Assembly: GCA_007376385.1 (NCBI GenBank)
Contig: VMGC01000001.1
Span: 256,001-320,000, forward strand
Length of the DNA: 64,000 nucleotides
DNA from: Parcubacteria group bacterium Gr01-1014_8
GTDB lineage: Bacteria > Patescibacteriota > Minisyncoccia > Phycocordibacterales > UBA2100
Direction: 5' to 3'
The position numbers and the translations under genes are program-made. This document shows, in pieces, positions 33,017 to 49,874 of the stretch. Position 1 is the stretch's first letter. Each line of letters opens with the position of its first letter. The notes below the pieces were generated by a model. It saw only the letters and a list, made by a program, of their open reading frames with translations. It was not told the DNA's origin and did no database searches.

Positions 33017-33025
33017 TGTGCGGGT

Positions 33026-35982: not shown

Positions 35983-36068
35983 TACGCTCGCAGGGGTGGA
36001 GGAGGAGATTTTTTTGTGTGCGACGCGTTGAATGTTCCAACCATCGTATCCCTGTTATACTCGCAACG

Positions 36069-36620: not shown

Positions 36621-36626
36621 AACGGT

Positions 36627-37454
36627 ATGACAAAACGGCTTGCGGTAGTTGCTGGCGGATGGCATTTCCCCTTAGGTTTTTATGAAGCGATGTCTCGTCA
36701 GCAAATACCTGAAGGCTGGGAAGTTGAGTTTTTTTGCGTCTCTCATCGCGACCCGAAGCATTCTAAAGAGGAGAAAGAAGAAATCCTAGCAAACCTCGGT
36801 TGGAGTCATCGCGAAGCACTCGACCGGGTTCTCTACAAGGATTTTGCAACTATCGAATCAATGAGCGCGCTTGGGTGGAAGTACAAGGAATATCCGAACA
36901 CGATAGGCGATTGGGGCATGTCGAATCAATGGCTCGGGGAACATGATTACAAAGGGTACGAAATGTTTCTTTTTACGCACGACGATAATTTGATACTTAC
37001 CGATAAAATGCTCGTGGAAGTTTTGCAGGATACAAAAGACTGGCTCGTACTCTCGAACTCAACAGGCAATTCTCAGCGTCGTTTGCGGCAATGGCTAAGG
37101 CTACCGAAGAAATTGCATTTGCGCGGGTCATTCGAATTCTTCAGACACGAGATGCTCGATAAGATGGGAGGGAAATTTGACCTTTCGGAAACGACGCTTA
37201 CGCGCGAGGGTACGGTAGATACGCCGGGAAAATTCACGGCTCTTTCTGATTGGGGAACTACTGTTTTTCCGCTCGAGAAACTTATTGCACGAGAAAATCT
37301 TCAATCACGAATTCATTTTCTTTCGCAGTATTATCGAATGAGTAAATACTGTCTTGAAGGCGAGCGCGGGTTCATTCACAGCACTCACTTCTCAAATACC
37401 GCAGAAGAGGAGAAGGGGCTTAGAAGCATCGCAGCAGGACAAAAAGCCGCATGA
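36627..37454 (+). CDS. Hypothetical protein (275 aa) within the glycan locus
   Basis: No recognisable family; possible DxD-like HDDN. Confidence 0.5.
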   Translation: MTKRLAVVAGGWHFPLGFYEAMSRQQIPEGWEVEFFCVSHRDPKHSKEEKEEILANLGWSHREALDRVLYKDFATIESMSALGWKYKEYPNTIGDWGMSNQWLGEHDYKGYEMFLFTHDDNLILTDKMLVEVLQDTKDWLVLSNSTGNSQRRLRQWLRLPKKLHLRGSFEFFRHEMLDKMGGKFDLSETTLTREGTVDTPGKFTALSDWGTTVFPLEKLIARENLQSRIHFLSQYYRMSKYCLEGERGFIHSTHFSNTAEEEKGLRSIAAGQKAA

Positions 37455-38581
37455 ACATTGTATACATCACAAGTGCGCGTATACCGTCAGAACGGGCCTA
37501 TGGCTATGCCATCACCAAACTCTGCGAAGAGTGGGGGAAGGCGGGGCATGATGTGAGGTTGATATTGCCGGAGAGGGAACATGGTCTGCAAGATGACCTG
37601 TTCGAATACTACAAACTCGAGAGGACATTCACCATAGAAAAGATTTCGGCAAGTGACTGGATTGGAAAAAGTCTGTCGACATCGCGCGTTCACTTTGCCC
37701 TCGATCTTCTTGCGTTCGTGATCTCGTTGCGAACAGTACGATTTGATGCGGACACAGCCATCTACACCCGTGAATATCTGCTTGCGCTCACACTTCCGGC
37801 ACGGAATCTTTTTTTGGAAGTGCACACGGTACACAGCAAAGGTTTTTTGTTTCGCCGTGCATTAGGACGGGTGCGCGGGATCGTTGCGATAAGTGAGGGC
37901 GTGAAAAAGGAACTGGTCGCTCTTGGTGTCGCAGAAGAAAAAATTAAGGTTGCTCATGACGGGGTCGATCTGGATCCATTTGCACAGGCTCCGGCGGACA
38001 GAAGCGTCTGGAGGCAGTTTGGTGTCGAGCCGTCACAAAATGTTGTGTTATACGCCGGTCATTTTTACGAGTGGAAAGGAGCCGATACCTTGGCGGTCGC
38101 TGGAAAAATGCTCCCATCTGATGTGCACACGGTCCTAGTAGGAGGTGTAGATAACGAGCTGCGCGACTTTAGAGAGAAATATGCCGCTTCAAATGTGCAC
38201 ATCGCGCCGCATCGATCACGCGCAACGATACCTGTCTTACTGAAAAGCGCGGATGTGCTCGTTCTTCCGAACAGCGCAAAGGCGGAAATCTCGCGCTCAC
38301 ACGCCTCGCCGCTGAAGCTGTTCGAATACATGGCCGCGGGCGTCGCAATTGTTGCGTCCGATGTGCCTAGTCTGCGTGAAGTACTTTCTGAGGATACAGC
38401 TTTTTTCTTTAAGGCCGATGACTCGAATAGTCTCGCGGAGGTTATCGGCCGCGTGCTCAAATTGCCGGACGACGCACATTCCAGAGCTGAACAGGCAAAG
38501 AAAAAGGCGGACACATACACATGGCGTGGTCGCGCTGCCGACATCGCACAATTTCTCGACAGACTGGGGAGCAAGGGATAG
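37451..38581 (+). CDS. Glycosyltransferase family 4
   Basis: MNIVYITSARIPSERAYGYAI… N-terminus, ASPLKLFEYMAAGVAIVASDVPSLREV C-terminal GT4 motif. Confidence 0.8.
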   Translation: MNIVYITSARIPSERAYGYAITKLCEEWGKAGHDVRLILPEREHGLQDDLFEYYKLERTFTIEKISASDWIGKSLSTSRVHFALDLLAFVISLRTVRFDADTAIYTREYLLALTLPARNLFLEVHTVHSKGFLFRRALGRVRGIVAISEGVKKELVALGVAEEKIKVAHDGVDLDPFAQAPADRSVWRQFGVEPSQNVVLYAGHFYEWKGADTLAVAGKMLPSDVHTVLVGGVDNELRDFREKYAASNVHIAPHRSRATIPVLLKSADVLVLPNSAKAEISRSHASPLKLFEYMAAGVAIVASDVPSLREVLSEDTAFFFKADDSNSLAEVIGRVLKLPDDAHSRAEQAKKKADTYTWRGRAADIAQFLDRLGSKG

Positions 38582-38591
38582 CATAGACTTT

Positions 38592-40403
38592 ATGCGGTTT
38601 TTTAGGCGCCTCGGGAATATGTTCCGCCTGCTTCGGCGGGCATATGGTGCATATTCGACGCAAATAGCGGCGCTTGCTGCCCTGGGCTTTTTGGGCGGAT
38701 TGCTTGAAGGCATCGGCATCAATGCGGTTGTCCCGCTTCTGACATTCATTTTTACGGAGTCCGCGCAGGCGTTTGACCCGATCTCGAATATTCTGCGGTC
38801 AGTGTTCACATTCATCGGCATTGATTTCGCCCCCAAATATTTGCTCGCGTTCATCGTGATCATGTTCCTTGCGCGCGCTGCGGTGATGTACGCGCTCTCG
38901 TATATTCAGACGGTCATATCATTCAACTATGAGCGAGATACGCGAGTACGCGTGTTCGAAACCCTCCTGCGTTCTTCGTGGTCGCATCATCTGGCAAGGA
39001 AATTCGGACATCTGGAGACTATCATCATGATAGACGCTCCGGCGAGCACGAATCTTCTCCGCAAGTTGAGCAATCTCATCACGCTCGCGACGGGGCTCAT
39101 AATGTATCTCATTGTGGCGTTCAATATTTCTCCTGCCGTTACATTTCTGACGTTCGCCGTCGGTGTATGCGGGCTCCTTTTCTTCAGATACTTTTTGACG
39201 ATGATTCACGCGAGAAGTTCGGAGCGTGTCGCGCTCAACAAAGAAGTCGCCCACTACATGGGGGAATACGCGGCGGGCGCGAAGGCGATAAAGGCATCCG
39301 GCACTGAGGAGGTTGTCGCGGAAAGCGGTGTGGATCTTTTTTCCCGTTTAAGGAATATTTCTGTAAGCATATCCCTTGTACAGCAGGTAGCCGTACTCAT
39401 TATTCCGCCGGCCGGGATTCTATATATCGCGCTCATATTCGGTGTTGCGTACCGTACTGATTTCATCCAGCTTGCCGCGCTTCCCGCTATTATTTACCTC
39501 ATTTACCGCATCTCGCTGTACGCTCAGCAAGGGCAGGACCACCTGCAGGGTATTCAGGAACTCGTCCCTCATTTGCAGAGCGTGCTCGCGTTCGAGGAGA
39601 AATCGCGACAGAAAGAAGAGCACATCGGCGGAGATAAATTATTCGCCTTCCACAAGGAACTTCGATTTGACGATGTTCATTTTTCCTACGACGACGGTCG
39701 CGAAGCGCTAAAAGGCGTGTCATTTACTGTTAAGGGGCGCTCAACGGTTGGTATTGTCGGTCCTTCCGGTGCAGGGAAGACGACATCGGTCGATTTGATG
39801 CTGAGGCTCTTGGAGCCGACGAACGGGGCGATCACACTCGATGGTGTAAATGTGCGCGATATTTCACTGCAATCATGGCGCGCAAAAACGGGGTATGTAC
39901 CACAAGAACCGTTCCTGTTGCACGATACGATACGGAACAACGTTCTTTTTCAATTTAAAGGAAACGGAGGACAAGACGCGCTTTCCGATGCAGATGTGTG
40001 GCACTTTCTCAAGATGGCGGATGCGGAAGATTTTGTTCGCGCGATGCCGGAGGGGCTCGATTCAATGGTCGGGGACAGAGGCGTAACACTTTCAGCAGGG
40101 CAGAGACAAAGGCTCGTCATTGCGCGTGAGCTTGCTCGAAAGCCGGAACTCCTCATTCTCGACGAGGCGACGAGCGCGCTCGATAGTGAATCAGAGGCGC
40201 GTTTGCAGAAGGTCATCCAGAAACTCAAGGGTTCGGTTACTATCGTCATTATTGCCCATCGTCTCTCGACTATCTTGGAGTCGGATAAGCTTGTTGTTCT
40301 AAAAGAAGGCACGGTAGCTGAGCCAATAGCCAGCCCTGAAGCGATGCTTCGTACCGCCGGCTCGTATTTAAGCCACATTTTCTCGCTGAATAAATCACTA
40401 TGA
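38592..40403 (+). CDS. ABC transporter, fused permease/ATP-binding protein (MsbA/PglK-like exporter, likely glycolipid or lipid-linked glycan flippase)
   Basis: Start trimmed to MRFFRRLGNMF… (just after the upstream GT4 stop); 6 TM region then GPSGAGKTT Walker A, LSAGQRQRLVIAREL signature, ILDEATSALD Walker B. Confidence 0.85.
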   Translation: MRFFRRLGNMFRLLRRAYGAYSTQIAALAALGFLGGLLEGIGINAVVPLLTFIFTESAQAFDPISNILRSVFTFIGIDFAPKYLLAFIVIMFLARAAVMYALSYIQTVISFNYERDTRVRVFETLLRSSWSHHLARKFGHLETIIMIDAPASTNLLRKLSNLITLATGLIMYLIVAFNISPAVTFLTFAVGVCGLLFFRYFLTMIHARSSERVALNKEVAHYMGEYAAGAKAIKASGTEEVVAESGVDLFSRLRNISVSISLVQQVAVLIIPPAGILYIALIFGVAYRTDFIQLAALPAIIYLIYRISLYAQQGQDHLQGIQELVPHLQSVLAFEEKSRQKEEHIGGDKLFAFHKELRFDDVHFSYDDGREALKGVSFTVKGRSTVGIVGPSGAGKTTSVDLMLRLLEPTNGAITLDGVNVRDISLQSWRAKTGYVPQEPFLLHDTIRNNVLFQFKGNGGQDALSDADVWHFLKMADAEDFVRAMPEGLDSMVGDRGVTLSAGQRQRLVIARELARKPELLILDEATSALDSESEARLQKVIQKLKGSVTIVIIAHRLSTILESDKLVVLKEGTVAEPIASPEAMLRTAGSYLSHIFSLNKSL

Positions 40404-41128
40404 AAAAGAGGATAGCTATCATTCAGGCGAGAATGAATTCCTCTAGAATGCCCGGGAAAATTCTGAAGGAGATCTCGGGAAAACCGGCGCTGTGGCATCT
40501 CATAGAGAATATCCGACCCTCGAAACAGCTCACCGATATTATCGTCGCGACCACAATGAATACGGCGGATGACGTGATAGCCGATTTTACGAAGGAGAAT
40601 GCTGTCACCTGTTTCCGCGGAAGCGAGGAAAACGTACTAGAGCGATTTTATGAGGCAGCGAAGTCTATCGGTGTCAAGGATTCTGACATCATCGTACGAA
40701 TTACCGCCGATGATATATTCATGGATCCGTATATCATTGATGCGCTCGTCACTTTTTTTGATTCCACGTATCCATACTATAGATTGGTGTCCAATAGCTT
40801 CAAGCCGGGTTTTCCGTATGGTCTTTATTTCGAGCTATTTGATTTCGCTTCTCTGAAAGATGCTTATCGTAATGCGACCACGGAATCCCAAAAAGAGCAT
40901 GTGACGCCGTACATCCGCGAACACGAGGAAACATTTCCTGCTATAGCAATCGAATCAAAAGGAGTCGATCTTTCGGATGTGTATCTTTCGATTGATACAG
41001 TGGAGGACCTCGAGCGAAATCGCCGCATCATCGAGCGGTTGGAGTCGCAGAATAAAAAACATCCGTATCTCTTTACAGATGTAGTCACCGCATATAAGGA
41101 TTTAAAATTGAGCAGGGCATCTGTATGA
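40400..41128 (+). CDS. Acylneuraminate (CMP-nonulosonate) cytidylyltransferase family protein (SpsF/NeuA/LegF-like)
   Basis: IAIIQARMNSSRMPGKILKEISGKPALWHLIENI N-terminal cytidylyltransferase motif; 242 aa. Confidence 0.8.
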   Translation: MKKRIAIIQARMNSSRMPGKILKEISGKPALWHLIENIRPSKQLTDIIVATTMNTADDVIADFTKENAVTCFRGSEENVLERFYEAAKSIGVKDSDIIVRITADDIFMDPYIIDALVTFFDSTYPYYRLVSNSFKPGFPYGLYFELFDFASLKDAYRNATTESQKEHVTPYIREHEETFPAIAIESKGVDLSDVYLSIDTVEDLERNRRIIERLESQNKKHPYLFTDVVTAYKDLKLSRASV

Positions 41129-42183
41129 GCCCCATTAAAAATAACTCGCCCAAGCCCTCCGGGCGCGCTAGCGCGGGCGCTATTTCTAACGGGGCGAGAA
41201 TTGGCGTTGTGGGAAACGGTTCGATGGGGAGGCGGAGAATAAAACATTCTCAGATGTATGGATATACAGACATCACGGGTTGGGATATTAGGTCGGACAG
41301 GCGAAAGGAGGTCGAATCAAAGTTCGGAATACAAACGGTGAAGAGTCAGAAGGATTTTGAGAACTCAAAGTTCGATGCGCTATTCATTTGTGTGCCTCCG
41401 GCCGAACACTATTACTACATGAAGCTTGCGGTGAAGAACGGTTGGAATTTTATGGTGGAGAATCCAGTGTGGCATAAGGTGAAGGGACTCGATGTGCTTC
41501 AAAGGGAAGTGAAGAAGAAAAAACTGGTGGCGAACGTCAGTTGCAACGTCAGGTTCCTGAAAGCGACGCAGAGGATAAAGCAGCTTGTTCGAGATGATGT
41601 CATTGGACCGATATTGTCGGGCGTAGCCGAAGTCGGCGAATATTTGCCTGATTGGCATCCGTACGAACCGTATACCGATTACTATCCGTCCAAAAAAGAA
41701 ATGGGCGGCGGTATCGACGCGATGTGTGATCTCGACTGGCTTGTCGATATTTTCGGCGATATCCGCAGGATGAACTGTGTGTATTCGAAAAAGTCGAGCC
41801 TAAAAATCAATACCTATGACATCATTGATTTCATTCTAGAGTTCAAGTTAGGACCGCAGATAGTTCTGCATACCGACATGCTTCAATCGCCGTACGGCAG
41901 AGCGGTGAAGCTCATAAGTGAGCGCGGTGTTATCGTGTGGGAATACAAAGAACAGATAGTAAAATATTATGATCGTCGAACCAAGAAGTGGACAAAGTTC
42001 GACGAATCGGGTTCGAGAGTTAATTTCGACAATAACATCACGACGACATGGGCTGAGCAGATGTATATGGACGATTCATTTCACTTCTTCAAGTGTCTGA
42101 AAGGCGAGGCGAAGCCGCTTAACACTATAGAAAGCAATTCGAAACTTCTGAAACAGCTTCTCAAAGCCATCGACTACGCCTGA
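41125..42183 (+). CDS. Gfo/Idh/MocA-like NAD(P)-dependent oxidoreductase (PtmF-like)
   Basis: N-terminal Rossmann ARIGVVGNGSMGRRRIKH and Gfo/Idh/MocA-like layout; 352 aa. Confidence 0.55.
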   Translation: MSPIKNNSPKPSGRASAGAISNGARIGVVGNGSMGRRRIKHSQMYGYTDITGWDIRSDRRKEVESKFGIQTVKSQKDFENSKFDALFICVPPAEHYYYMKLAVKNGWNFMVENPVWHKVKGLDVLQREVKKKKLVANVSCNVRFLKATQRIKQLVRDDVIGPILSGVAEVGEYLPDWHPYEPYTDYYPSKKEMGGGIDAMCDLDWLVDIFGDIRRMNCVYSKKSSLKINTYDIIDFILEFKLGPQIVLHTDMLQSPYGRAVKLISERGVIVWEYKEQIVKYYDRRTKKWTKFDESGSRVNFDNNITTTWAEQMYMDDSFHFFKCLKGEAKPLNTIESNSKLLKQLLKAIDYA

Positions 42184-42184
42184 T

Positions 42185-43606
42185 ATGAGGATACTTGTCG
42201 TATATCCGAGGGCAGTGCCGGAGATAGAGATATTTTTTAATGACCTCAAACAAGCGGGGCACGAAATCGTCTATTGGGTCGGGGAACATAGCGGAGAGAA
42301 GAACACCCCTAAAGGCGCGATATTTCACGATCACTATGATGCGTGGGACGGCAAATCGGCTGAAGTATTCAAGAACGTCACATTCCCGCCCGCTTCTTCA
42401 GAGTTGGTAGAAAGATTGTACCGTACAGAGTCAGTTGTGCTTTCTATGATGGATAAGCATTACGATTCGGCGCCCGTGAATGAGCGAAAGCATATCTATT
42501 ATTCGATGTTGTCCTACTGGTCGGGAGTGTTGGATATGCTCAAGCCCGATGCGGTCGTCTTCGCTATAGTTCCTCACACGGTATACAACTACATTCTTTA
42601 TGAGCTCGCGCGTCTGCGCGGCCTTTTTACGCCGTGCTTTGAAGATACGTATGTTGCGTCACGCCTTTTATTTTATAAGAATTTCTGGGAAGGAAGTGAG
42701 GAACTACGTGATGCGCTCGGGCGTGCGTCCGATGCGAAGCTATCCGACTTGTCCGGAGATTTAGCGGCATATTTGAAACGATTTAAAGAGACCGAGGCAC
42801 AGCCGGCGTATATGGCCCAGCAAAAAAGACTGGGCGCGGGTTGGGGGCTCTTTCGCCACAGAGTCAGGATAGCGCGCGCTGGTCTGCTTTCCGGGAGGAC
42901 GTTCGTACTCGCGTGGAGATTTTTCAAGCGGTTGTTTGTCAGAAATCTTGCACACGAATATAGAGGAGTCGTGTCTGCGCCGGACATGTCACGGCCATAT
43001 GTATATTTTCCTCTCAATATGCAGCCCGAGCGCTCAACCTCGCCGCAGGGCGGTGTTTTTCAGGATCAGATCCTCGTTGCGGAAACAGTTGCCGCATCGT
43101 TGCCTGATGGCTGGATGCTTGTGATAAAAGAACATCCTTCGCAGTGGTGGTTGCGTGGGAAAACGCGTTACTCGAGCGCACGCTACCGCGGCTATTATCA
43201 GCGTCTTGCGCGTATACCGAACACGGTTCTCGTAGATACATTCACCAACACGTTCGAGTTGACGCGCGGTGCGCGGGCTGTCGCCGTCGTAACCGGAACT
43301 CCGGGGTGGGAAGCGATTCTGCGCAGTATTCCCGTGATCGTGTTCGGATACCCGTGGTATCGGGATTGCCCCGGAACTCTGCGAGTAGAAAATGTGGATG
43401 AGTGCAGGGTAGCGCTTGCGAGAATCGAGTCCGGGGGTCTAAAGCTGACTACTGACGGCGTGATTGCTTTTTTGAAAGCGCTTGACGCTGTGTCAGTACG
43501 TGCTTTTATTCACGATCTGATCGGGCAGACCGAACATATGAGTGAAGCGGAATCCTTTCGAAATATTGCTCTGAAGCTGAACACAGAACTCCGCGCGAAT
43601 ACATAA
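42185..43606 (+). CDS. Capsule_synth (KpsS/LpsZ)-like GT-B protein with HP motif; putative CMP-ulosonic-acid glycosyltransferase; paralog of 57971..59467
   Basis: VIKEHPSQWW … VAVVTGTPGWEAILRSIPVIVFGYPWY; collinear similarity to the ORF at 57971 (VKEHPGMTPY … VTVISGTPGWEAALLKKPVITFGHVFY). Confidence 0.55.
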   Translation: MRILVVYPRAVPEIEIFFNDLKQAGHEIVYWVGEHSGEKNTPKGAIFHDHYDAWDGKSAEVFKNVTFPPASSELVERLYRTESVVLSMMDKHYDSAPVNERKHIYYSMLSYWSGVLDMLKPDAVVFAIVPHTVYNYILYELARLRGLFTPCFEDTYVASRLLFYKNFWEGSEELRDALGRASDAKLSDLSGDLAAYLKRFKETEAQPAYMAQQKRLGAGWGLFRHRVRIARAGLLSGRTFVLAWRFFKRLFVRNLAHEYRGVVSAPDMSRPYVYFPLNMQPERSTSPQGGVFQDQILVAETVAASLPDGWMLVIKEHPSQWWLRGKTRYSSARYRGYYQRLARIPNTVLVDTFTNTFELTRGARAVAVVTGTPGWEAILRSIPVIVFGYPWYRDCPGTLRVENVDECRVALARIESGGLKLTTDGVIAFLKALDAVSVRAFIHDLIGQTEHMSEAESFRNIALKLNTELRANT

Positions 43607-43608
43607 CT

Positions 43609-44589
43609 ATGCGGGCATCATCGAACAAACAATCAGCTGCGTTGGAAAAAGCAGCTCTTTCCAAAAAGAAGGCGAGACGATCGCCTGACAAGAAGGACAG
43701 GGAGATAGCGGAAGAAATTCTGCGAATTCACTCAAAACTCAAGAAGGTTTTTATGGCCGACGGCGAGTGGAAGTGGATCAATGAGAACAAAAAAAAGAAT
43801 TATATAAAAGCGTTGCGCGATAACAATCCGGATGCTCTCGCGGCGATACTCGCAAATCTTTTTCAGGAAGACGCTTCCTACGGATTTTACACATACGAGA
43901 CAGATTCATTACAGGCGGGTATACGTGCCGACCTTGCCGTATGGAACGAATTCGTGGAGCAGAATGACATATCCCCGCTCTCGATGCCTGATGTGGGGAA
44001 TCCGCACGGTATTGTGGTCGGGGGAGTGCTCGTTGCGCCTTTCCAGCCGCGCCATGATTATTGCGCTCAGAAGATACATTCTCTCGGTCCGAAAACCGTT
44101 CTCGAAATAGGAGGCGGATACGGCGGGCTGGCGCTTCAATTGTCACGACGTTCGAATGTTAAATATATAGACTGCGATTTGCCGGAAACTCTGTATGTCG
44201 CGTACTACTTTCTCAAAAAAGCGGGATTAAACGTGAAATGGGCCATAGATACATGGCCGGATGCCCCGATTGTTCTTGTTCCTGCGAATCGAAAGAAGTT
44301 AATTCAAAAGGCAGATCTGGTGTTTAACGGCCTTTCCTTTTCCGAGATGGGAAGAGAAACGGTCGACGGGTATTTCAAATTCATAAACAACGTATGGAAG
44401 CCCCGATATATTTTTCATCAGAACAGCAACATCCTTCTTTTTCCCAATTCACCGCGGCATATCGAAGTTCTCGCGAGGGATTTTCCCATAGGTAAAATCT
44501 ATCGCGAGATCTATCGTGCAATTTCTCCATGGCAGGGAGGCAGTGGCAGGTATCGTGAGTATCTCTACGAGAGGAATCTCGAACGTTGA
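43609..44589 (+). CDS. Putative SAM-dependent methyltransferase
   Basis: VLEIGGGYGGLALQL glycine-rich motif I; 326 aa. Confidence 0.45.
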   Translation: MRASSNKQSAALEKAALSKKKARRSPDKKDREIAEEILRIHSKLKKVFMADGEWKWINENKKKNYIKALRDNNPDALAAILANLFQEDASYGFYTYETDSLQAGIRADLAVWNEFVEQNDISPLSMPDVGNPHGIVVGGVLVAPFQPRHDYCAQKIHSLGPKTVLEIGGGYGGLALQLSRRSNVKYIDCDLPETLYVAYYFLKKAGLNVKWAIDTWPDAPIVLVPANRKKLIQKADLVFNGLSFSEMGRETVDGYFKFINNVWKPRYIFHQNSNILLFPNSPRHIEVLARDFPIGKIYREIYRAISPWQGGSGRYREYLYERNLER

Positions 44590-44616
44590 TTTTTTTATTG
44601 ACGACGTAGAGCGAGA

Positions 44617-44644
44617 GAAGTGAATGTGTACTCACATTCACTTC
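44617..44644 (+). repeat. Perfect 12-bp palindromic hairpin (gaagtgaatgtg tact cacattcacttc)
   Basis: Read directly; 28 nt downstream of the upstream stop codon, no U-tract. Confidence 0.5.
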
Positions 44645-44722
44645 CGGGCCGAGGAGTCAAAATAGGTTCAATACCGCACGGCTTGCCGCGCGTCAGAACG
44701 AGCGAAGCGAGTTCCAAAAATA

Positions 44723-44757
44723 CCTCGGGGCTTTGCCCCGAGGAACCTTTATTTTCC
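44723..44757 (+). terminator. Rho-independent terminator (9-bp GC stem cctcggggc/gccccgagg, loop ttt, then U-rich aacctttattttcc)
   Basis: Read directly from the sequence. Confidence 0.5.
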
Positions 44758-44822
44758 GACGCAAACATATTTGCATTTGAGAGAGAGAGGGGGGAGTGGT
44801 GTGCCACTCGAAATGTCCTGCA

Positions 44823-44851
44823 TTGACTGGTGAGCTTTTTTAATGTAAAAA
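44823..44851 (+). promoter_or_regulatory. Candidate sigma70-like promoter TTGACT-N17-TAAAAA placing the transcription start at or near the ATG of the downstream SDR gene (possible leaderless mRNA)
   Basis: Hexamers read directly; -10 ends 7 nt before the ATG at 44859. Confidence 0.3.
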
Positions 44852-44858
44852 ATGACAA

Positions 44859-45632
44859 ATGTATCGTAAGAATTCGTATGCACTTACAGAGAGCGTAGCG
44901 TTCATTACAGGTGCTCTCGGCCAGATCGGACGGGAGATAGTCATGCGATTCTTGGAAGACGGCGCGTTTGTCTATATCGCCGACAAAGGGAAAAAGATCA
45001 GTGACGATCTCGCAAAAAAACTGAAGCGCGCGAAATTTGATAACTACCGGTACGTCACGATTGACGTGACGAGCGAGGAGTCGATACGAGCCGTGTATAG
45101 GAAACTGACGCGTCCCGTTGATGTACTTGTCAATTGTGCCGGCATTGGCGTATATACGTCGTTTGAGTCGCGAACTTCCGACGAACTCGATACCGTGTAC
45201 GCGGTAAACCTTAAGGGCACTATCCTGTGCTCCAAGATATTTTCAGCAGGCATGATGAAGAGGAAAGGGGGTCGGATCATCAATATCGGTTCTATATACG
45301 GGATTACAACGCCGGATTTTTCAATGTACGGCGATTCCGGTAGGAATTCTTCTGAGATCTACGGCGCGACGAAAGCCGGCATTATCCAGACGACGAAATA
45401 TCTTGCGGCATACCTTGCGCCGCACAATATTCTGGTGAACTGCGTAAGTCCAGGCGGCGTCTTTAATCGCCAGAAATCCTTTTTCGTCAGACGATATAAA
45501 AAGAGGACGCCGCTTCAGCGAATGGCGGCGCCAGACGATCTTACGGGTGTTATCGCGTTTCTCGCTTCGGATGAGGCGGCGTATATCACGGGACAGAATA
45601 TCGCGGTCGACGGAGGCTTTACGATATGGTGA
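44859..45632 (+). CDS. Short-chain dehydrogenase/reductase (SDR), PtmA-like
   Basis: ITGALGQIGREIV Rossmann motif, YGATKAGIIQ catalytic YxxxK; 257 aa. Confidence 0.85.
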   Translation: MYRKNSYALTESVAFITGALGQIGREIVMRFLEDGAFVYIADKGKKISDDLAKKLKRAKFDNYRYVTIDVTSEESIRAVYRKLTRPVDVLVNCAGIGVYTSFESRTSDELDTVYAVNLKGTILCSKIFSAGMMKRKGGRIINIGSIYGITTPDFSMYGDSGRNSSEIYGATKAGIIQTTKYLAAYLAPHNILVNCVSPGGVFNRQKSFFVRRYKKRTPLQRMAAPDDLTGVIAFLASDEAAYITGQNIAVDGGFTIW

Positions 45633-48028
45633 AGAAAGCCCGTAAAAAAGTATATGTGCTTGGAGCGGGAATGAGCGGGCTTGCGACCGCACTTCGGCTT
45701 GCAGAGCTCGGCGTCGATACAACCCTCGTTGAAAAAGAAAAGAAGGTCGGCGGACTCGCGGGAAGTTTCAAATGGCGCGATTTCAAGAATCTTGATTACG
45801 GACCGCATATCTACCACACACCCGACAAGAAACTGGAAGAGATATGGAAGAAGGAGTACGGCGATCTGTTCCATCAAAATGAGTTCTGGGGAAAGAACGT
45901 TAAAGGTGAGAAGTTCGACCGGTATTTTGACTACCCACTGTCATTCGAATCACTAAAAAAATTTCCTTCTGACGTGAGAAAAAAGATCATGCATGAACTG
46001 TCTCATCTCGACGAGACAAAGCTCGCAAAGGCGAAAAGTTATGCCGATTACGTACGGGAACTCGTCGGTCCCACGCTGATGGAGTATTTTTTTATCCGTT
46101 ACCCTCAAAAATTATGGGGGGTTTCCATAGATAAGATGACGGCAAACTGGGCCCCCAAGCGTGTTACATTCAGGACGAAAGACGAACATTTTCATGCAGG
46201 TCAATGGAGCGCGGTCGGGAAATACGGGTCAGGCAGGATACTGGAGAGAATGGCCGATAGATTCAAAAAAAAAGGTGGCACACTTATGCTCGGGAGTCCC
46301 GTCATGGCGATCGAGCACTCAAACGGCATCATCAAGAACATCGTACTTGACGAAAAGAAAATCAGACTTTCGTCCGACGATGCGGTTGTTTCGACGATAC
46401 CGATACCTGTCATGGCCGAGTATCTTGGCGTTAGAAATACCTTGAAATATCGTGGAGCGAAAATTGTATTTGTCGCGCTCAACAAGGAAGAGGCAATCCC
46501 CGACAAGTTCAATTTTCTTTACTACGATGCACCGGAAATAATTTTTCATCGGGTGAGTGAGCAGAAGAAATTCTGCGCGCTTGGGTTTCCAAAGAACAAA
46601 ACTGTGCTTTCGTGTGAGATCGCATACACAAAAGGGGACACGCTGGATACAACCGACGAGAAAGAGATACTGGATCGAGCTGTGAGCAGTCTCATACGTG
46701 TCGGGCTCGCCAAAAAAAATGAGGTTGAGGATGCGATGATGGTCTCCCTTCCGTACGTGTACCCTCTCTTGGTTCGCGGAAGCGAACACGAACTCGTTGA
46801 TGTGCGCGGACGTCTCGGCGCATTCAAGCAGCTCTATTGCATCGGCACCGGGGGCGATTTCCGGTACGATGACCTGCAGATACTCAATTTACGAGGGTTT
46901 GATCTCGCTGAGCGGCTTGCGTCACCTGAACTGGACGAAGATGCGGGAGAAGCTGTCAAAAAAGATTTTACGACCGGCTTTAACAACACGTTCGCGCTCG
47001 GCCGCCATACAGTTTCTGAATCCGCGCCCGCGTTCATCATTGCCGAGATCGGGCTCAACCATAACGGGAGCATGAAGCTCGCTATGGAGCTTATCGATAG
47101 GGCGGTTGAGTGCGGTTGTTCGGCCGTGAAGTTTCAGACGTACAGCGCGGGGAACAGAGTGTCGAAGGAAGTGAAGGGCAATCGATACGCCGAGAAGCTT
47201 GTAGATATGGAAGAAACAACATTCGATATGCTCAAGCGTCTGGAATTCACTACGAAAGATCACGTGCGCCTGTTTGCGTACGCCAAGCAAAAAGGAATCG
47301 AGATCTTTTCAACACCGTTCGACTTTGAAAGCGTCGATCTTCTGGAATCCCTCGGGTGCGACTTCTATAAGATTTCGTCGATGGATCTTGTGAATCTGCC
47401 GTTGATACAAAAAGTCGCAAGGACAGGGAAGCCGATGATCGTTTCGACGGGAATGTCAACGCTCGGTCAGGTCGAGGATGCCGTCAATACCATCCGGGAA
47501 ACCGGCAATAAAAATCTTGTCCTCCTGCACTGCGTCTCAATGTATCCCGCGGCGGCACAGGACGTAAACATGGCAGTTATGGGAACTCTACGGCGGGCAT
47601 TCGGAACGCCAGTCGGTTTTTCCGATCACACTATCGGTCTTTCGGCCGCGACTGTTGCGCTCGCACTCGGCGCACGTGTCATCGAACGGCACTTTACTCT
47701 CGATAGATTTATGGAGGGGCCCGATCACATTCTGTCGTCTGACCCGGATGAAATGAGAGAGCTTGTGCGTCTCAGTCATCTTATTCCCGTCATCATGGGA
47801 AAGCCAGAGAAAGTAATTCTTCCGAGCGAAACGGAAACCGTCAATAGGTTCAAGAAATGTCTGTACGCACGGAAAGACATACGTCGGGGCCAGAAAATAA
47901 CAATGGATGCGCTTGCCATAAAGGGTCCGGGAGGAGGGATATTGCCGAAATATGCCAACGTTATTGTCGGGAGGACGGCTCGAAACAGTATCAAGAGGGA
48001 TCACCCCATCCAGTGGGGCGATGTATGA
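45626..48028 (+). CDS. Fusion protein: N-terminal FAD-dependent UDP-galactopyranose-mutase-like flavoenzyme plus C-terminal NeuB-type nonulosonic acid (sialic/legionaminic/pseudaminic) synthase with SAF domain
   Basis: N-terminus KVYVLGAGMSGLATALRLAELGVDTTLVEKEKKVGGLAGSF…YGPHIYHT (UGM-like dinucleotide fold). From ~residue 450 FIIAEIGLNHNGSMKLAMELIDRAVECGCSAVKFQTY…, KISSMDLVNLPLIQ…, C-terminal SAF-like domain; 800 aa in one frame. Confidence 0.75.
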   Translation: MVKKARKKVYVLGAGMSGLATALRLAELGVDTTLVEKEKKVGGLAGSFKWRDFKNLDYGPHIYHTPDKKLEEIWKKEYGDLFHQNEFWGKNVKGEKFDRYFDYPLSFESLKKFPSDVRKKIMHELSHLDETKLAKAKSYADYVRELVGPTLMEYFFIRYPQKLWGVSIDKMTANWAPKRVTFRTKDEHFHAGQWSAVGKYGSGRILERMADRFKKKGGTLMLGSPVMAIEHSNGIIKNIVLDEKKIRLSSDDAVVSTIPIPVMAEYLGVRNTLKYRGAKIVFVALNKEEAIPDKFNFLYYDAPEIIFHRVSEQKKFCALGFPKNKTVLSCEIAYTKGDTLDTTDEKEILDRAVSSLIRVGLAKKNEVEDAMMVSLPYVYPLLVRGSEHELVDVRGRLGAFKQLYCIGTGGDFRYDDLQILNLRGFDLAERLASPELDEDAGEAVKKDFTTGFNNTFALGRHTVSESAPAFIIAEIGLNHNGSMKLAMELIDRAVECGCSAVKFQTYSAGNRVSKEVKGNRYAEKLVDMEETTFDMLKRLEFTTKDHVRLFAYAKQKGIEIFSTPFDFESVDLLESLGCDFYKISSMDLVNLPLIQKVARTGKPMIVSTGMSTLGQVEDAVNTIRETGNKNLVLLHCVSMYPAAAQDVNMAVMGTLRRAFGTPVGFSDHTIGLSAATVALALGARVIERHFTLDRFMEGPDHILSSDPDEMRELVRLSHLIPVIMGKPEKVILPSETETVNRFKKCLYARKDIRRGQKITMDALAIKGPGGGILPKYANVIVGRTARNSIKRDHPIQWGDV

Positions 48029-49065
48029 AGAGTCCCGTCATAGAGAATATTTTACGAAAGATACGCGCCGGTTCCAAACGCCGCGCGACAGGCTTTGTCA
48101 TCGGAAACACCTCCGGAGTTTTCAAACAAGGCCGATTGTATCCGATTCCTATCCGGGAGACGGGTACACTCATTTACGGCGGTGTGATCGTTCGTGATGT
48201 CGCTACCGCCGGAGCTGTCGCGCGCATGATAGACGGCAAGACGGACTACGTATTTGTTGATGCGGAAAAGAAGATCGAGACAATGTATCATGGTAAAAAC
48301 GATGTCGGCAACATCGAGCGGATGGTTCGCGGCGTCATATTGAAATCGAAGATAATTACCTACAAAGGCAACGACCTGACAAAAGACGCAATCGACTTTC
48401 TTCTCGGTCAGCTTATCGTTGATATTGGCGGAACGACTGTCGCCGTGATCGGATGCGGGAATCTCGGTGCAAAAATAGCGCTTAAATTGGTGGAGCGAGG
48501 AGCTCATGTCCGTGCGTACCGGAGGGACAAAGGGAAGCTGCGGAAAATTGTGACGGGTCTCAATCAGATAAAATCAGAACACACGCTTTCGTCCATCTGG
48601 GCGGCGCGGAGTATAGCGGATGCGTGTAAAGGTGCGAGCGCAGTTATCGCAACAGCAGACAGCCAGGGCATTATCAAACACGATCATTTGAAATTCATGA
48701 ATATCGCCCGCCCGCCCATCCTGATCGATGCGGGAAAAGGCTGTTTTTCGGATGATGTAGTGAGAAGTGATGCATACGCCATATACCGTGCCGATGTGTC
48801 CATCGCGCAAAAGCATATTTTTTCGGCGCTTCTTGAGACGAAATTACACTATGGGCGATCGATAGGACGGCGCGTGCTCGAGGATGGCAATGTGGGCCTC
48901 GTGTCGCTCGGGCTCCTTGGAAAAAAAGGGGAGGTCATCGTGGATGATATTGATTCCCCGCGGCGCATTATCGGTGTCGCTGACGGGAGGGGCAAGTTGA
49001 TGAAGAATGTCGGGAGTCAGAAGAAAGTTGTTGAGAAAATACGGCGCATGTTTAATGCATCATAA
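48025..49065 (+). CDS. NAD(P)-binding Rossmann-fold protein of uncertain function (shikimate/saccharopine-dehydrogenase-like fold)
   Basis: Start trimmed to MKSPVIENIL (ATGA overlap with upstream stop); VAVIGCGNLGAKIALKLVERGAHV dinucleotide motif. Confidence 0.45.
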   Translation: MKSPVIENILRKIRAGSKRRATGFVIGNTSGVFKQGRLYPIPIRETGTLIYGGVIVRDVATAGAVARMIDGKTDYVFVDAEKKIETMYHGKNDVGNIERMVRGVILKSKIITYKGNDLTKDAIDFLLGQLIVDIGGTTVAVIGCGNLGAKIALKLVERGAHVRAYRRDKGKLRKIVTGLNQIKSEHTLSSIWAARSIADACKGASAVIATADSQGIIKHDHLKFMNIARPPILIDAGKGCFSDDVVRSDAYAIYRADVSIAQKHIFSALLETKLHYGRSIGRRVLEDGNVGLVSLGLLGKKGEVIVDDIDSPRRIIGVADGRGKLMKNVGSQKKVVEKIRRMFNAS

Positions 49066-49070
49066 TTTCT

Positions 49071-49835: not shown

Positions 49836-49874
49836 CGCGACGAACAAGAAAGTTGGTGATATGCTCGGATAATT

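What the first reader, a model, noticed from the sequence alone, without database searches (positions are those of the whole stretch)
42185..43606. Two paralogous HP-motif Capsule_synth-like proteins: predicted CMP-nonulosonate glycosyltransferases
The ORFs at 42185..43606 and 57971..59467 share a collinear C-terminal core (EHP… / S/TGTPGWEA… / P-V-I-x-FG). Each sits inside one of the two NulO modules, next to synthase and cytidylyltransferase genes. The HP motif is the hallmark shared by CMP-ulosonic-acid-dependent GT-B transferases (sialyltransferases GT52/GT80, Kdo transferases of the KpsC/KpsS/WbbB type). The simplest reading is one dedicated transferase per nonulosonic acid. These would be divergent, uncharacterised members of that superfamily.
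Basis: partly seen in the sequence, partly recalled or inferred. Interest (0 to 1): 0.6.

Follow-up and report, generated by a model that had tools for sequence, protein, structure and literature searches.

The report
Paired nonulosonic-acid transferase candidates in CPR
Two related genes in a sugar-synthesis locus of an ultra-small "candidate phyla radiation" bacterium most likely encode the enzymes that attach sialic-acid-like sugars to a surface glycan. They are a new variant of a known enzyme class: a glutamate replaces the usual catalytic aspartate, and one of the two is almost always paired with an ABC exporter.

Summary

The window comes from Parcubacteria bacterium Gr01-1014_8. Both families are large, unnamed, and every taxonomically labelled hit seen is a metagenome-assembled genome, mostly labelled Patescibacteria.

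The (K/R)xHP CMP motif is invariant. The defining QxxxD nucleophile motif is not: an invariant Glu (E282, E317) sits at the Asp position. ORF1 also keeps the KpsC-type general-base motif (FEDTY against LEDGF). ORF2 does not.

Related loci carry a nonulosonic-acid synthase or cytidylyltransferase within 10 kb in 43/49 (ORF1 family) and 30/40 (ORF2 family) loci of at least 15 kb. An MsbA/PglK-like ABC exporter lies directly upstream of ORF1 homologs in 55/80 loci.

The best reading is cytoplasmic CMP-nonulosonate glycosyltransferases, probably retaining. "One transferase per sugar" is not supported: paralog and synthase counts do not track each other. In relatives, ORF1 usually precedes a PseB/PseC-led pathway. 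ORF2 more often adjoins the FAD-NeuB module. No activity was tested.

The parts
42185..43606 (+). ORF1, 473 aa: Capsule_synth-like GT-B protein, predicted CMP-nonulosonate glycosyltransferase (ORF1 family)
42638..42652 (+). ORF1 F152-E153-D154-T-Y: candidate general-base motif, E153 equivalent to Glu66 of E. coli KpsC-N
   Evidence: MAFFT places cFEDTyV..R of the ORF1 family on rLEDGFvRS / fEEGYLRP of KpsC-N, KpsC-C and KpsS. Position 153 is Glu or Asp in 37/41 sequences. The role of Glu66 is taken from PMC10148158.
43016..43030 (+). ORF1 N-M-Q280-P281-E282: loop at the position of the QxxxD nucleophile motif. E282 is invariant and sits where the Asp nucleophile lies.
   Evidence: Q280, P281 and E282 are invariant in A1. 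MAFFT with KpsC-N, KpsC-C and KpsS aligns E282 with the Asp of QxxxD. Spacing to the His of HP is 35 residues, against 34 in KpsC (and own count). E is kept in all 147 representatives.
43127..43138 (+). ORF1 K315-E-H317-P318: (K/R)xHP CMP-binding motif
   Evidence: Invariant in A1. The profile alignment puts yvKEHP on YVKVHP of KpsC 6mgb. The motif's role is taken from PMC12887879.
43295..43315 (+). ORF1 G-T-P-G-W-E376-A: nucleotide-binding loop, equivalent to S-Q-Y-G-F-E-A of KpsC
   Evidence: G374 and E376 are invariant. Aligned to the KpsC GFEA motif.
57971..59467 (+). ORF2, 498 aa: full-length paralog of ORF1 (ORF2 family), predicted CMP-nonulosonate glycosyltransferase
58907..58921 (+). 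ORF2 Q-Y-E315-P316-E317: loop at the QxxxD position. E317 is invariant and sits at the nucleophile position.
   Evidence: HMM alignment puts 'ffpLhyEPE' on 'VVPGQVESD' of T. dismutans KpsC-C 6mgd. MAFFT agrees. E315, P316 and E317 are invariant.
59018..59029 (+). ORF2 K350-E-H352-P353: (K/R)xHP motif
   Evidence: K350, H352 and P353 are invariant. Aligned with KVHP of KpsC.
59159..59179 (+). ORF2 G-T-P-G-W-E402-A nucleotide-binding loop
   Evidence: E402 is invariant; G400 and W401 are at least 90% conserved. Aligned with GFEA of KpsC.
38592..40403 (+). ABC exporter (fused TMD-NBD, HepA/MsbA/PglK-like): conserved partner of the ORF1 family. The start is revised from the mechanical TTG 38349.
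   Evidence: Pfam ABC_membrane plus ABC_tran. NCBIfam HepA 300 bits, MsbA 259, PglK 208, all below cut-off. Directly upstream of ORF1 homologs (<150 nt) in 55/80 loci, and upstream on the same strand in 68/80. Start.
40400..41128 (+). Cytidylyltransferase 1 (CTP_transf_3), presumed CMP-nonulosonate synthetase
   Evidence: Pfam PF02348 117.8 bits.
41125..42183 (+). GFO/IDH/MocA oxidoreductase directly upstream of ORF1
   Evidence: Pfam. Recurrent in related cassettes.
43609..44589 (+). NanM-like putative sugar O-methyltransferase directly downstream of ORF1
   Evidence: NCBIfam TIGR04371 75 bits, cut-off 44.
45626..48028 (+). FAD oxidoreductase fused to a NeuB-type nonulosonate synthase (module 1 synthase)
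   Evidence: Pfam NeuB 301 bits plus Amino_oxidase/GLF. NCBIfam NeuB_NnaB 375 bits against PseI 303.
49071..49835 (+). Cytidylyltransferase 2 (CTP_transf_3)
   Evidence: Pfam PF02348 97.3 bits.
51226..53423 (+). PseB-like 4,6-dehydratase and PseC-like aminotransferase (start of module 2)
   Evidence: NCBIfam PseB 395.9 bits (cut-off 407.75) and PseC 459 bits (cut-off 423.5).
55592..56641 (+). PseI-type pseudaminic acid synthase (module 2 synthase)
   Evidence: NCBIfam PseI 475 bits, cut-off 340.

Best explanation
ORF1 and ORF2 are soluble or peripheral cytoplasmic GT-B glycosyltransferases. They take a CMP-activated nonulosonic acid made by the surrounding genes and transfer it to a growing, probably lipid-linked, surface glycan.

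Shown here:
- They are full-length paralogs.
- They belong to the Capsule_synth / KpsC-WbbB superfamily by sequence profile and by predicted fold.
- The cytosine/phosphate-binding (K/R)xHP motif and the ribose-binding Glu of GxGWE are invariant.
- An invariant Glu occupies the position of the Asp nucleophile of the retaining Kdo transferases.
- Both families sit in nonulosonate-synthesis loci in labelled MAGs, most of them labelled Patescibacteria.

Inferred:
- The donor is a CMP-nonulosonate, a Pse-type and/or a Neu/Leg-type sugar. Which protein uses which sugar is not resolved.
- Catalysis is retaining double displacement. Glu282/Glu317 would attack C2 while His317/His352 assists CMP departure, giving a glycosyl-enzyme adduct. 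A general base (Glu153 in ORF1; unknown in ORF2, possibly Tyr181-Glu182) would then activate the acceptor hydroxyl.
- A basic, aromatic-rich helical insert between the two Rossmann domains docks the enzyme on the membrane.
- The ORF1 product is handed to the adjacent MsbA/PglK-like ABC exporter for flipping.
For: Paralogy.

Family:
- Pfam Capsule_synth above cut-off.
- Profile against PDB: KpsC at E 1.5e-8 and 2.4e-10, WbbB at 0.015 and 0.07.
- The NCBIfam BFO_1060 model is named after the Tannerella forsythia homolog of the genetically proven Pse/Leg transferases (PMC5420450). It is hit by 38/40 ORF2-family and 14/41 ORF1-family members.

Motifs:
- KEHP, QPE/EPE and GxGWE are conserved, with E282, E317, H317, H352, E376 and E402 invariant.
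- Glu aligns with the QxxxD Asp of KpsC-N, KpsC-C and KpsS by HMM and by MAFFT.
- FEDTY of ORF1 aligns with LEDGF, which holds the KpsC general base.
- The roles of these motifs come from PMC10148158 and PMC12887879.

Context:
- Two NeuB synthases and two cytidylyltransferases lie in one operon-like string with 4-nt overlaps.
- In loci of at least 15 kb, a NeuB or CMP-transferase gene lies within 10 kb in 43/49 (ORF1 family) and 30/40 (ORF2 family). Any nonulosonate-pathway gene is present in 48/49 and 39/40.
- The ABC exporter is adjacent in 55/80 loci.
- No other protein in the locus carries a CMP-sugar transferase signature by Pfam, apart from the unresolved 441-aa RPHP-motif ORF at 56638..57963.

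Insert: net charge +10 (ORF1) and +7 (ORF2), and no transmembrane segment.
Against: - No biochemical data exist for any member. All are annotated 'hypothetical'.
- The similarity to characterised enzymes is confined to about 80-120 C-terminal residues at 13-17% structural identity.
- Foldseek against the PDB ranks UDP-GlcNAc 2-epimerases and NeuC first and does not list KpsC or WbbB in the top 50. However, its TM-scores are only 0.21-0.30.
- The QxxxD motif that defines the retaining Kdo transferases is not met: Glu replaces Asp, and the Gln is not conserved. The retaining mechanism is therefore an extrapolation.
- I could not superpose coordinates to confirm that E282/E317 reach the anomeric carbon.
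- ORF2 lacks the KpsC-type base.
- The window lacks a recognisable PseG or NeuC/LegG hydrolase. One GT-B-type function is therefore unaccounted for and could in principle be carried out by these proteins.
- About a quarter of ORF2-family loci of at least 15 kb show no NeuB or CMP-transferase within 10 kb.
- In a longer subgroup of the superfamily, the His of HP is Asn or Ala.
Confidence: 0.68

Rival explanations
1. The two proteins, with the ABC exporter, form a KpsS/KpsC-like system. They would not cap a glycan with a single residue. Instead they would build a short nonulosonic-acid oligomer or linker on a lipid acceptor, with one paralog initiating and the other, or tandem copies, extending with alternate linkages. 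That linker would prime or mark a polymer for ABC-transporter export, as poly-Kdo does for group 2 capsules.
For: - The closest characterised relatives are KpsC and KpsS.
- The ABC exporter lies directly upstream of ORF1 homologs in 55/80 loci.
- The divergent arrangement 'ORF2(-) ABC(+) ORF1(+)' recurs in 13/80 and 9/40 loci.
- Ten of 80 loci carry tandem full-length ORF1-type duplicates, reminiscent of the two GT107 modules of KpsC.
- Paralog number does not follow synthase number.
- The basic aromatic interdomain insert is compatible with a lipid acceptor.
Against: - The exporter is an MsbA/PglK/HepA-type half transporter, not a KpsMT/ABC-2 type.
- ORF2 homologs also occur beside Wzx-type flippases without an ABC gene. 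This fits an ordinary repeat-unit transferase better.
- Most ORF1 loci have no ORF2 within 10 kb.
- No lipid or polymer data exist.
Confidence: 0.15
2. ORF1 and ORF2 are not transferases. They are the missing GT-B-fold nucleotide-sugar hydrolases (functional analogues of PseG or of the hydrolysing 2-epimerase NeuC/LegG), one for each nonulosonate pathway.
For: - No Pfam PseG (Glyco_tran_28_C) or Epimerase_2 protein is found in the window, nor in several minimal cassettes of relatives.
- The number of paralogs equals the number of modules in this window.
- There are weak NCBIfam wecB hits in 11/40 ORF2-family members, and PseG in 1/40.
Against: - The invariant (K/R)xHP motif is a cytidine-specific signature (PMC12887879).
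- Pfam finds Capsule_synth but no Epimerase_2 or Glyco_tran_28 at E <= 1.
- Profile E-values to KpsC are 1e-8 to 1e-10, against 0.022 for an epimerase.
- No ORF1-family member hits wecB or PseG.
- Canonical NeuC-like genes (E down to 1e-61) coexist with ORF1 or ORF2 homologs in 20/80 and 17/80 loci.
- Under this reading the loci would make CMP-sugars but encode no CMP-sugar transferase.
- The tight coupling to the exporter suits an assembly enzyme.
Confidence: 0.08
3. They transfer something other than a nine-carbon nonulosonate. Candidates are Kdo or another ulosonic acid from a CMP donor, or a polyol phosphate as TagB/TagF-type enzymes do.
For: - The characterised structural relatives are Kdo transferases.
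- Both cytidylyltransferases score best, though below cut-off, against KdsB models.
- The T. forsythia enzymes were described as carrying a TagB-superfamily domain (PMC5420450).
Against: - The locus encodes NeuB-family synthases (PseI 475 bits, NeuB 375 bits) and no KdsA.
- There is no Pfam Glyphos_transf hit at E <= 1.
- TagF-like hits rank far below KpsC and WbbB.
- From general knowledge, CPR bacteria lack LPS.
Confidence: 0.05

Closest known systems
KpsC (CAZy GT107), retaining beta-Kdo transferase modules of group 2 capsule linker synthesis (PDB 6MGB, 6MGC, 6MGD, 8FUW)
   Same: - Shared (K/R)xHP motif, GxE nucleotide loop and a carboxylate at the nucleophile position, with the same spacing to His (35 against 34).
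- ORF1 also shares the (L/F)-E-D-x-(F/Y) general-base motif.
- Both are genetically tied to an ABC exporter and to a CMP-ulosonate synthetase.
   Different: - The nucleophile residue is Glu, not Asp, and the carboxylate-binding Gln of QxxxD is not conserved.
- The N-terminal domain has no detectable sequence similarity apart from the base motif.
- Single-module proteins of 473-498 aa with a basic helical insert.
- The neighbouring synthases are NeuB/PseI-type (nine-carbon sugars), not KdsA.
- The exporter is MsbA/PglK-like, not KpsMT.
- The host is a monoderm-like CPR bacterium.
WbbB N-terminal module (GT99), retaining beta-Kdo O-antigen chain terminator (PDB 5FA0, 8CSB)
   Same: - Weak profile hit (E 0.015 and 0.07).
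- It works in an ABC-transporter-dependent pathway where a single ulosonic acid caps the glycan. This is a plausible analogue for the ORF1 plus ABC pairing.
   Different: The same motif differences as for KpsC. Sequence similarity is marginal. WbbB is a multidomain polymerase-terminator, whereas these are stand-alone proteins.
KpsS1 of Acinetobacter baumannii (GT118), retaining Pse5Ac7Ac pseudaminyltransferase (Walklett et al. 2024, as cited in PMC12887879)
   Same: - The only biochemically characterised nonulosonate transferase of the Capsule_synth/KpsS-like lineage.
- Encoded next to a Pse pathway.
- This is the functional precedent for the proposal made here.
- Its proposed base is a 'YE' motif, and ORF2 has Y181-E182 in the N-domain.
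   Different: - I could not obtain its sequence or the paper, so the relationship is untested.
- E. coli KpsS, its 30%-identical relative, has QVYND and KHHP, that is, an Asp nucleophile.
- E. coli KpsS matches the CPR profiles only over the C-terminal region: about 40 residues for the ORF1 profile and about 90 for the ORF2 profile, the latter including the HP motif.
Tannerella forsythia Tanf_01245 / TFUB4_00887 (NCBIfam NF046086, BFO_1060 family), Pse- and Leg-derivative transferases of the S-layer O-glycan
   Same: - Genetically proven nonulosonate transferases with an HP motif and a conserved C-terminal half (PMC5420450).
- 38/40 ORF2-family and 14/41 ORF1-family members hit the model over its positions about 202-289.
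- They are paralogous enzymes that discriminate Pse from Leg donors.
   Different: - Scores are far below the family cut-off (27 bits against 200), so these are not members.
- The T. forsythia enzymes work with a Wzx-type pathway in a diderm.
- Their N-terminal halves are unrelated as far as tested.
KrkA N-terminal module (GT140), retaining Kdo transferase of the E. coli K13 capsule (PDB 9YFX)
   Different: There is no sequence similarity. KrkA keeps QTLND (Asp nucleophile) and lacks the K/R of the HP motif.

Membership tests
Pfam PF05159 Capsule_synth superfamily | Score above the curated gathering threshold of the Pfam model | tested here: met
   ORF1 34.5 bits and ORF2 31.2 bits against cut-off 20. 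Only profile positions 141/169-267 of 310 are matched. Nearly all homologs carry a precomputed PF05159 hit.
Retaining ulosonic-acid GT-B transferases (GT99 / GT107 / GT140 type) | [quoted passage not shown] | tested here: met
   K315-E-H317-P318 and K350-E-H352-P353 are invariant in 41 and 40 sequences. They align with KVHP/KPHP/KHHP of KpsC and KpsS.
Retaining ulosonic-acid GT-B transferases (GT99 / GT107 / GT140 type) | QxxxD motif: absolutely conserved Asp nucleophile and carboxylate-binding Gln | tested here: not met
   At the aligned position both families have x-x-(Q/E)-P-E. Glu282/Glu317 are invariant in place of Asp. The -4 residue is N/H/S/G/Q, not a conserved Gln. A carboxylate is kept, but the motif as defined is not.
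Retaining ulosonic-acid GT-B transferases (GT99 / GT107 type) | General-base Glu in the N-terminal domain (KpsC-N Glu66 in the L-E-D-G-F motif) | tested here: inconclusive
   The ORF1 family has F-(E/D)-(D/E)-T-W at the aligned position, acidic in 37/41. The ORF2 family has non-acidic residues there. No coordinates were available to check the geometry.
Retaining ulosonic-acid GT-B transferases (GT99 / GT107 / GT140 type) | Modified GT-B fold closest to WbbB and KpsC | tested here: met
   [not shown]
Retaining ulosonic-acid GT-B transferases | Retention of anomeric configuration through a covalent glycosyl-enzyme adduct | not testable with these tools
   This requires an enzyme assay, intact-protein mass spectrometry and NMR.
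GT118 (KpsS1-type pseudaminyltransferases) | Sequence membership in the KpsS1 clade and use of CMP-Pse5Ac7Ac | not tested
   No KpsS1 sequence or structure was reachable. The paper is not held and no PDB chain was found. E. coli KpsS, its relative, matches the CPR profiles only over the C-terminal region (about 40 residues for the ORF1 profile, about 90 for the ORF2 profile).
NCBIfam NF046086 BFO_1060 family glycosyltransferase (T. forsythia Pse/Leg transferases) | Score above the curated cut-off (200 bits) | tested here: not met
   ORF2 scores 27.3 bits and ORF1 has no hit. 38/40 and 14/41 family members give sub-threshold hits, best E 3.3e-10 and 3.1e-7. This is distant similarity over the C-terminal core only.
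Sialyltransferases GT38 / GT52 / GT80 | Detectable sequence or profile similarity beyond the HP motif | tested here: not met
   [not shown]
CDP-glycerol glycerophosphotransferase (TagB/TagF, Pfam Glyphos_transf) | Pfam PF04464 hit or closest structural neighbour | tested here: not met
   [not shown]
UDP-GlcNAc 2-epimerase / NeuC / LegG (Pfam Epimerase_2) and PseG | Profile hit to Epimerase_2, wecB or PseG models | tested here: not met
   No Pfam hit. wecB gives only E >= 2e-4 in 11/40 ORF2-family members, and PseG hits 1/40. There are none in the ORF1 family. Genuine NeuC-like genes coexist in 20/80 and 17/80 related loci.

The most novel reading that the evidence does not exclude
Many CPR/Patescibacteria may carry a conserved cassette: a nonulosonate pathway, a Glu-nucleophile KpsC-like transferase (often two paralogs or tandem copies), and an MsbA/PglK-like ABC exporter. 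On this reading the cassette would be a previously unrecognised, lineage-wide surface-glycoconjugate system. A lipid-anchored nonulosonic-acid oligomer or cap would play the role that the poly-Kdo linker plays in Gram-negative group 2 capsules. The transferases would found one or two new CAZy families that use glutamate instead of aspartate for double displacement.
Probability: 0.15. Interest if true: 0.75.

Novelty: new variant of a known kind. Interest (0 to 1): 0.52.

Why it matters
Few nonulosonic-acid transferases are known outside sialyltransferases and Maf proteins. Examples are KpsS1 (GT118) and the Tannerella enzymes.

These two families are large. The ORF1 profile alone finds 2,881 cluster representatives at E <= 1e-30 and 10,052 at E <= 1e-3. 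They are entirely unannotated, and every taxonomically labelled hit seen is a MAG, most labelled Patescibacteria, a group of ultra-small, mostly episymbiotic bacteria whose surface chemistry is almost unknown.

If the prediction holds, three things follow:
- Sialic-acid-like sugars are a common feature of CPR cell surfaces. This bears on attachment to hosts and on phage or immune recognition.
- The retaining double-displacement chemistry of Kdo transferases extends to a Glu nucleophile.
- A concrete enzyme set becomes available for chemoenzymatic synthesis of Pse/Leg glycosides.

I found no paper in the held library linking CPR bacteria with nonulosonic acids.

Tried and rejected
- NCBIfam on the two proteins gave only a weak BFO_1060 hit for ORF2 and nothing for ORF1.
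- Single-sequence PDB searches gave only KpsC.
- Foldseek against the PDB returned generic GT-B proteins and epimerases with TM <= 0.30. It did not discriminate families.
- The AlphaFold-database fold library was unavailable.
- The KpsS1/GT118 paper is not held, so GT118 membership and its nucleophile residue could not be checked.
- I tested whether the adjacent 441-aa ORF (56638..57963), which has an RPHP motif, is a third paralog. It has no Pfam, NCBIfam or PDB hit and only 8 relatives. hhalign against the ORF2 family gives probability 0.5%. Rejected as a demonstrable relative and left open.
- I looked for canonical PseG/NeuC among unassigned ORFs of five related cassettes. I found only GNAT, APH, GT2, formyltransferase, DUF218 and similar families.
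- I tested the 'one transferase per sugar' idea by counting NeuB genes and paralogs per full-flank locus. No 1:1 rule emerged.
- The listing of cluster members on ten members of the longer subgroup gave no useful taxonomy.
- Literature searches for nonulosonic, pseudaminic or sialic acids in Patescibacteria, CPR or Saccharibacteria found nothing relevant.
- E. coli NeuS and NeuE showed no significant similarity.
Full report
**1. What is at the coordinates**

The window encodes ORF1 at 42185..43606 (473 aa) and ORF2 at 57971..59467 (498 aa), both on the + strand.

- BLASTP aligns 126 C-terminal residues at 40% identity, E 1e-25.
- HMMs built from each family hit the other protein at E 1e-31 and 9e-35. 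They hit nothing else in the six-frame translation of the window.
- Profile-profile comparison shows homology over the whole length: 453 columns, probability 100%, E 1.4e-42.

**2. Source and distribution**

ORF1 and ORF2 are 100% identical to hypothetical proteins G01um10148_300 and _314 of 'Parcubacteria group bacterium Gr01-1014_8', on a contig of 407,897 bp.

- Every named homolog is a MAG. Labelled groups include Kaiserbacteria, Giovannonibacteria, Magasanikbacteria and Paceibacterota, and every one is annotated 'hypothetical'.
- A scan of one genome per GTDB species returned 97 relatives of ORF1. All 80 loci kept are MAGs. Most are labelled Patescibacteria, a few carry only 'bacterium', and three carry an 'uncultured Gammaproteobacteria' label that I did not check.
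- An exhaustive profile search of 1.84 billion cluster representatives found 10,052 proteins at E <= 1e-3, 7,438 at E <= 1e-10 and 2,881 at E <= 1e-30.

**3. Family assignment**

- Both proteins pass Pfam Capsule_synth, on the C-terminal part of the model only. No Glyphos_transf, Epimerase_2 or sialyltransferase family is reported at E <= 1.
- Family profiles against all PDB sequences find KpsC (GT107) at E 1.5e-8 for ORF1 and 2.4e-10 for ORF2, and WbbB (GT99) at 0.015 and 0.07.
- AlphaFold models are confident: pLDDT 91.6 and 89.7, pTM 0.88 and 0.87.
- Foldseek disagrees in ranking, placing UDP-GlcNAc 2-epimerases first. Its TM-scores are only 0.21-0.30, so I treat this as fold-level noise and record it as contrary evidence.
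- The NCBIfam model BFO_1060 is named after the Tannerella forsythia homolog of the genetically proven Pse- and Leg-derivative transferases (PMC5420450). It is hit below its cut-off by 38/40 ORF2-family and 14/41 ORF1-family members.

**4. Catalytic motifs**

The literature defines three elements for the retaining Kdo transferases (PMC10148158; PMC12887879):
- a (K/R)xHP motif that binds CMP;
- a QxxxD motif whose Asp forms the covalent adduct and whose Gln binds the sugar carboxylate;
- a Glu general base in the N-terminal domain.

I recovered E. coli KpsC and KpsS from a K1 strain and aligned them with both CPR families.

- KEHP is invariant and aligns with KVHP, KPHP and KHHP.
- At the QxxxD position the CPR proteins have N-M-Q-P-E (ORF1) and Q-Y-E-P-E (ORF2). 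The final Glu (E282, E317) is invariant. It aligns with the Asp in an HMM alignment to T. dismutans KpsC-C and in an independent MAFFT alignment.
- The spacing from this Glu to the His of HP is 35 residues, against 34 in KpsC.
- The Gln at -4 is not conserved.
- The Glu is kept in all 147 best superfamily representatives. The His of HP is replaced in about a quarter of a longer subgroup.
- In the N-domain, the ORF1 family has F-(E/D)-(D/E)-T-W, acidic in 37/41 sequences. It aligns without gaps to L-E-D-G-F, the KpsC base motif.
- The ORF2 family has no acidic residue there. Its base is unidentified. A Y181-E182 pair is a candidate only by analogy with the 'YE' base of KrkA and KpsS1.

I could not obtain model coordinates, so none of these placements is checked in three dimensions.

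**5. Genomic context in the window**

A glycan locus runs from about 20.8 kb to the end of the window.

| Coordinates | Product |
|---|---|
| 20817..21764 | Lamin-tail-domain protein |
| several genes, 22826..38581 | GT4 transferases, plus sugar-modifying enzymes |
| 38592..40403 | HepA/MsbA/PglK-like ABC exporter (revised start) |
| 40400..41128 | Cytidylyltransferase |
| 41125..42183 | GFO/IDH/MocA oxidoreductase |
| 42185..43606 | ORF1 |
| 43609..44589 | NanM-like O-methyltransferase |
| 44859..45632 | PtmA-like SDR |
| 45626..48028 | FAD-oxidoreductase::NeuB fusion |
| 47857..49065 | NAD-binding protein |
| 49071..49835 | Second cytidylyltransferase |
| 49875..51221 | Class-III aminotransferase |
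| 51226..53423 | PseB, PseC |
| 53459..54391 | Aldo-keto reductase |
| 54370..54849 | PseH-like GNAT |
| 54846..55565 | 239-aa methyltransferase-like ORF |
| 55592..56641 | PseI |
| 56638..57963 | 441-aa orphan |
| 57971..59467 | ORF2 |

Many junctions overlap by 4 nt, so the genes are probably co-transcribed. No Wzx, initiating phosphoglycosyl transferase, PseG or NeuC/LegG was recognised.

**6. Context in relatives**

I called ORFs in 80 ORF1-family loci (species-representative genomes) and 80 ORF2-family loci (metagenomes). I searched them with the window's proteins and with E. coli NeuA, NeuB and NeuC.

Loci of at least 15 kb:

| Feature within 10 kb | ORF1 family | ORF2 family |
|---|---|---|
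| NeuB or CMP-transferase gene | 43/49 | 30/40 |
| Any nonulosonate-pathway gene | 48/49 | 39/40 |

By my own rough estimate, not measured here, a random 21-kb stretch of a genome of about 1 Mb would hold a given one- or two-copy gene a few per cent of the time.

- The ABC exporter lies on the same strand upstream of ORF1 homologs in 68/80 loci, and within 150 nt in 55/80.
- The typical cassette is ABC-ORF1-PseB-PseC-(GFO)-aminotransferase-cytidylyltransferase-NeuB.
- ORF2 homologs occur divergently next to ABC-ORF1 in 13/80 and 9/40 loci.
- ORF2 homologs also occur next to FAD-NeuB/GFO/aminotransferase modules, or next to Wzx flippases (7/40).
- Ten loci carry tandem full-length ORF1-type duplicates.
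- Counts of NeuB genes and of paralogs per locus show no 1:1 relation.

**7. Interpretation**

The most economical reading is that both proteins are CMP-nonulosonate-dependent glycosyltransferases (confidence about 0.68).

- They carry the cytidine-specific motif.
- Their closest characterised relatives use CMP-ulosonic acids.
- Apart from the unresolved 441-aa ORF, they are the only proteins in the loci with that signature.
- The loci make CMP-nonulosonates.

The carboxylate kept at the nucleophile position suggests retaining double displacement with Glu instead of Asp. I give that step about 0.45, because it rests on alignment alone.

The basic, aromatic-rich interdomain inserts carry a net charge of +10 and +7 and contain no transmembrane segment. 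Together with the exporter linkage, this suggests a membrane-associated, lipid-linked acceptor. That is inference.

Which sugar each paralog transfers cannot be read from adjacency. In relatives, ORF1 usually precedes a PseB/PseC-led pathway, and ORF2 more often adjoins the FAD-NeuB module. That is the opposite of this window's layout.

**8. Rivals**

- **KpsS/KpsC-like primer or linker system coupled to the exporter (0.15).** This is compatible with the transferase assignment but differs in acceptor and product. It is the most novel reading that remains open.
- **Replacement of the missing PseG/LegG hydrolases (0.08).** This is suggested by the absence of those genes and by the epimerase-like fold hits. 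Three things weaken it: the HP motif, the lack of any Epimerase_2 or PseG profile hit in the ORF1 family, and the coexistence of genuine NeuC-like genes with ORF1 or ORF2 homologs in 20/80 and 17/80 loci.
- **Kdo or polyol-phosphate transfer (0.05).** This is unlikely given the NeuB-type synthases and the absence of KdsA or Glyphos_transf signals.

**9. Novelty and score**

The kind of enzyme is known: Capsule_synth-like GT-B transferases for ulosonic acids, including the Pse transferase KpsS1. New here are three things:
- a very large, unannotated pair of families;
- the invariant Asp-to-Glu change together with loss of the Gln of QxxxD;
- the conserved coupling of one paralog family to an MsbA/PglK-type exporter.

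I rate it a new variant of a known kind, interest about 0.5. Everything about activity, donor, acceptor and stereochemistry remains prediction.

Noticed in passing
window 45626..48028 (+): An 800-aa fusion of an FAD/NAD(P)-dependent oxidoreductase (Amino_oxidase/GLF-like, PRK07208-like) to a NeuB-type nonulosonate synthase with a SAF domain. The fusion query is also the best-scoring query for ORFs in 20/80 ORF1-family loci and in many ORF2-family loci, which suggests it is conserved among these relatives. I know of no described role for an FAD domain on a NeuB enzyme.
   Followed up: partly
window 56638..57963 (+): A 441-aa ORF directly upstream of ORF2 with no Pfam, NCBIfam or PDB hit and only 8 relatives among 5.8 billion proteins. 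It has an R-P-H-P-R motif and an invariant DGIFCND motif. hhalign against the ORF2 family is not significant (probability 0.5%), although the top alignment places RPHP on KEHP. It could be a PseG analogue or a third, very divergent HP-type GT-B protein.
   Followed up: partly
window 20800..63800; related loci L010, L025, L031, L032, L038, L040: No recognisable PseG or NeuC/LegG nucleotide-sugar hydrolase is found in the window, or in several minimal nonulosonate cassettes of relatives. NeuC-like genes are present in about a quarter of related loci. The enzyme that frees the hexose from its nucleotide in these pathways is unidentified. DUF218 proteins recur next to NeuB.
   Followed up: partly
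window 38349..40403 (+): The mechanically listed ABC-exporter ORF starts at TTG 38349 and overlaps the preceding GT4 gene by 233 nt. Relatives are 590-600 aa, and the NCBIfam alignment starts at residue 93. The real start is probably ATG 38592 (MRFFRRL...), 10 nt after the GT4 stop.
   Followed up: yes
window 20817..21764 (+); L003/L004 1..671: A lamin-tail-domain (LTD) protein sits at the head of the glycan locus here, and also upstream of the GT4 cluster in Giovannonibacteria loci. It might be a surface protein linked to the glycan (a substrate?). Untested.
   Followed up: no
window 25543..27513 (+): A 656-aa protein combines a GT4 glycosyltransferase with partial UDP-glucose/GDP-mannose dehydrogenase domains (part of the N-terminal domain and the central domain). 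This is an unusual fusion or a decayed dehydrogenase.
   Followed up: no
window 30993..31721 and 31625..32164 (+): An RmlD-like reductase appears as an N-terminal half (Pfam positions 2-149 of 287) followed by an overlapping ORF. This may be a frameshift or pseudogene, or a sequencing error.
   Followed up: no
window 54846..55565 (+): A 239-aa ORF with no Pfam hit carries a SAM-methyltransferase motif-I-like stretch (ILDVGCASGRSF). It is probably a divergent methyltransferase inside the Pse module.
   Followed up: no
window 19192..20820 (+): A TrwB/TraG-like type IV coupling ATPase is encoded immediately upstream of the glycan locus.
   Followed up: no
superfamily representatives P0249-P0395: In a longer subgroup (about 495-550 aa) related to ORF1, the His of the HP motif is Asn or Ala (KENP, KEAP, KENI) in about 25 of 147 representatives. 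The Glu of QPE stays invariant. These may be mechanistically different or non-catalytic members.
   Followed up: partly
L034, L039, L044, L047, L050, L052, L056, L077 (ABC-ORF1a-ORF1b): Ten of 80 related loci carry two full-length ORF1-type genes in tandem directly after the ABC exporter. This is reminiscent of the two GT107 modules fused in KpsC.
   Followed up: partly
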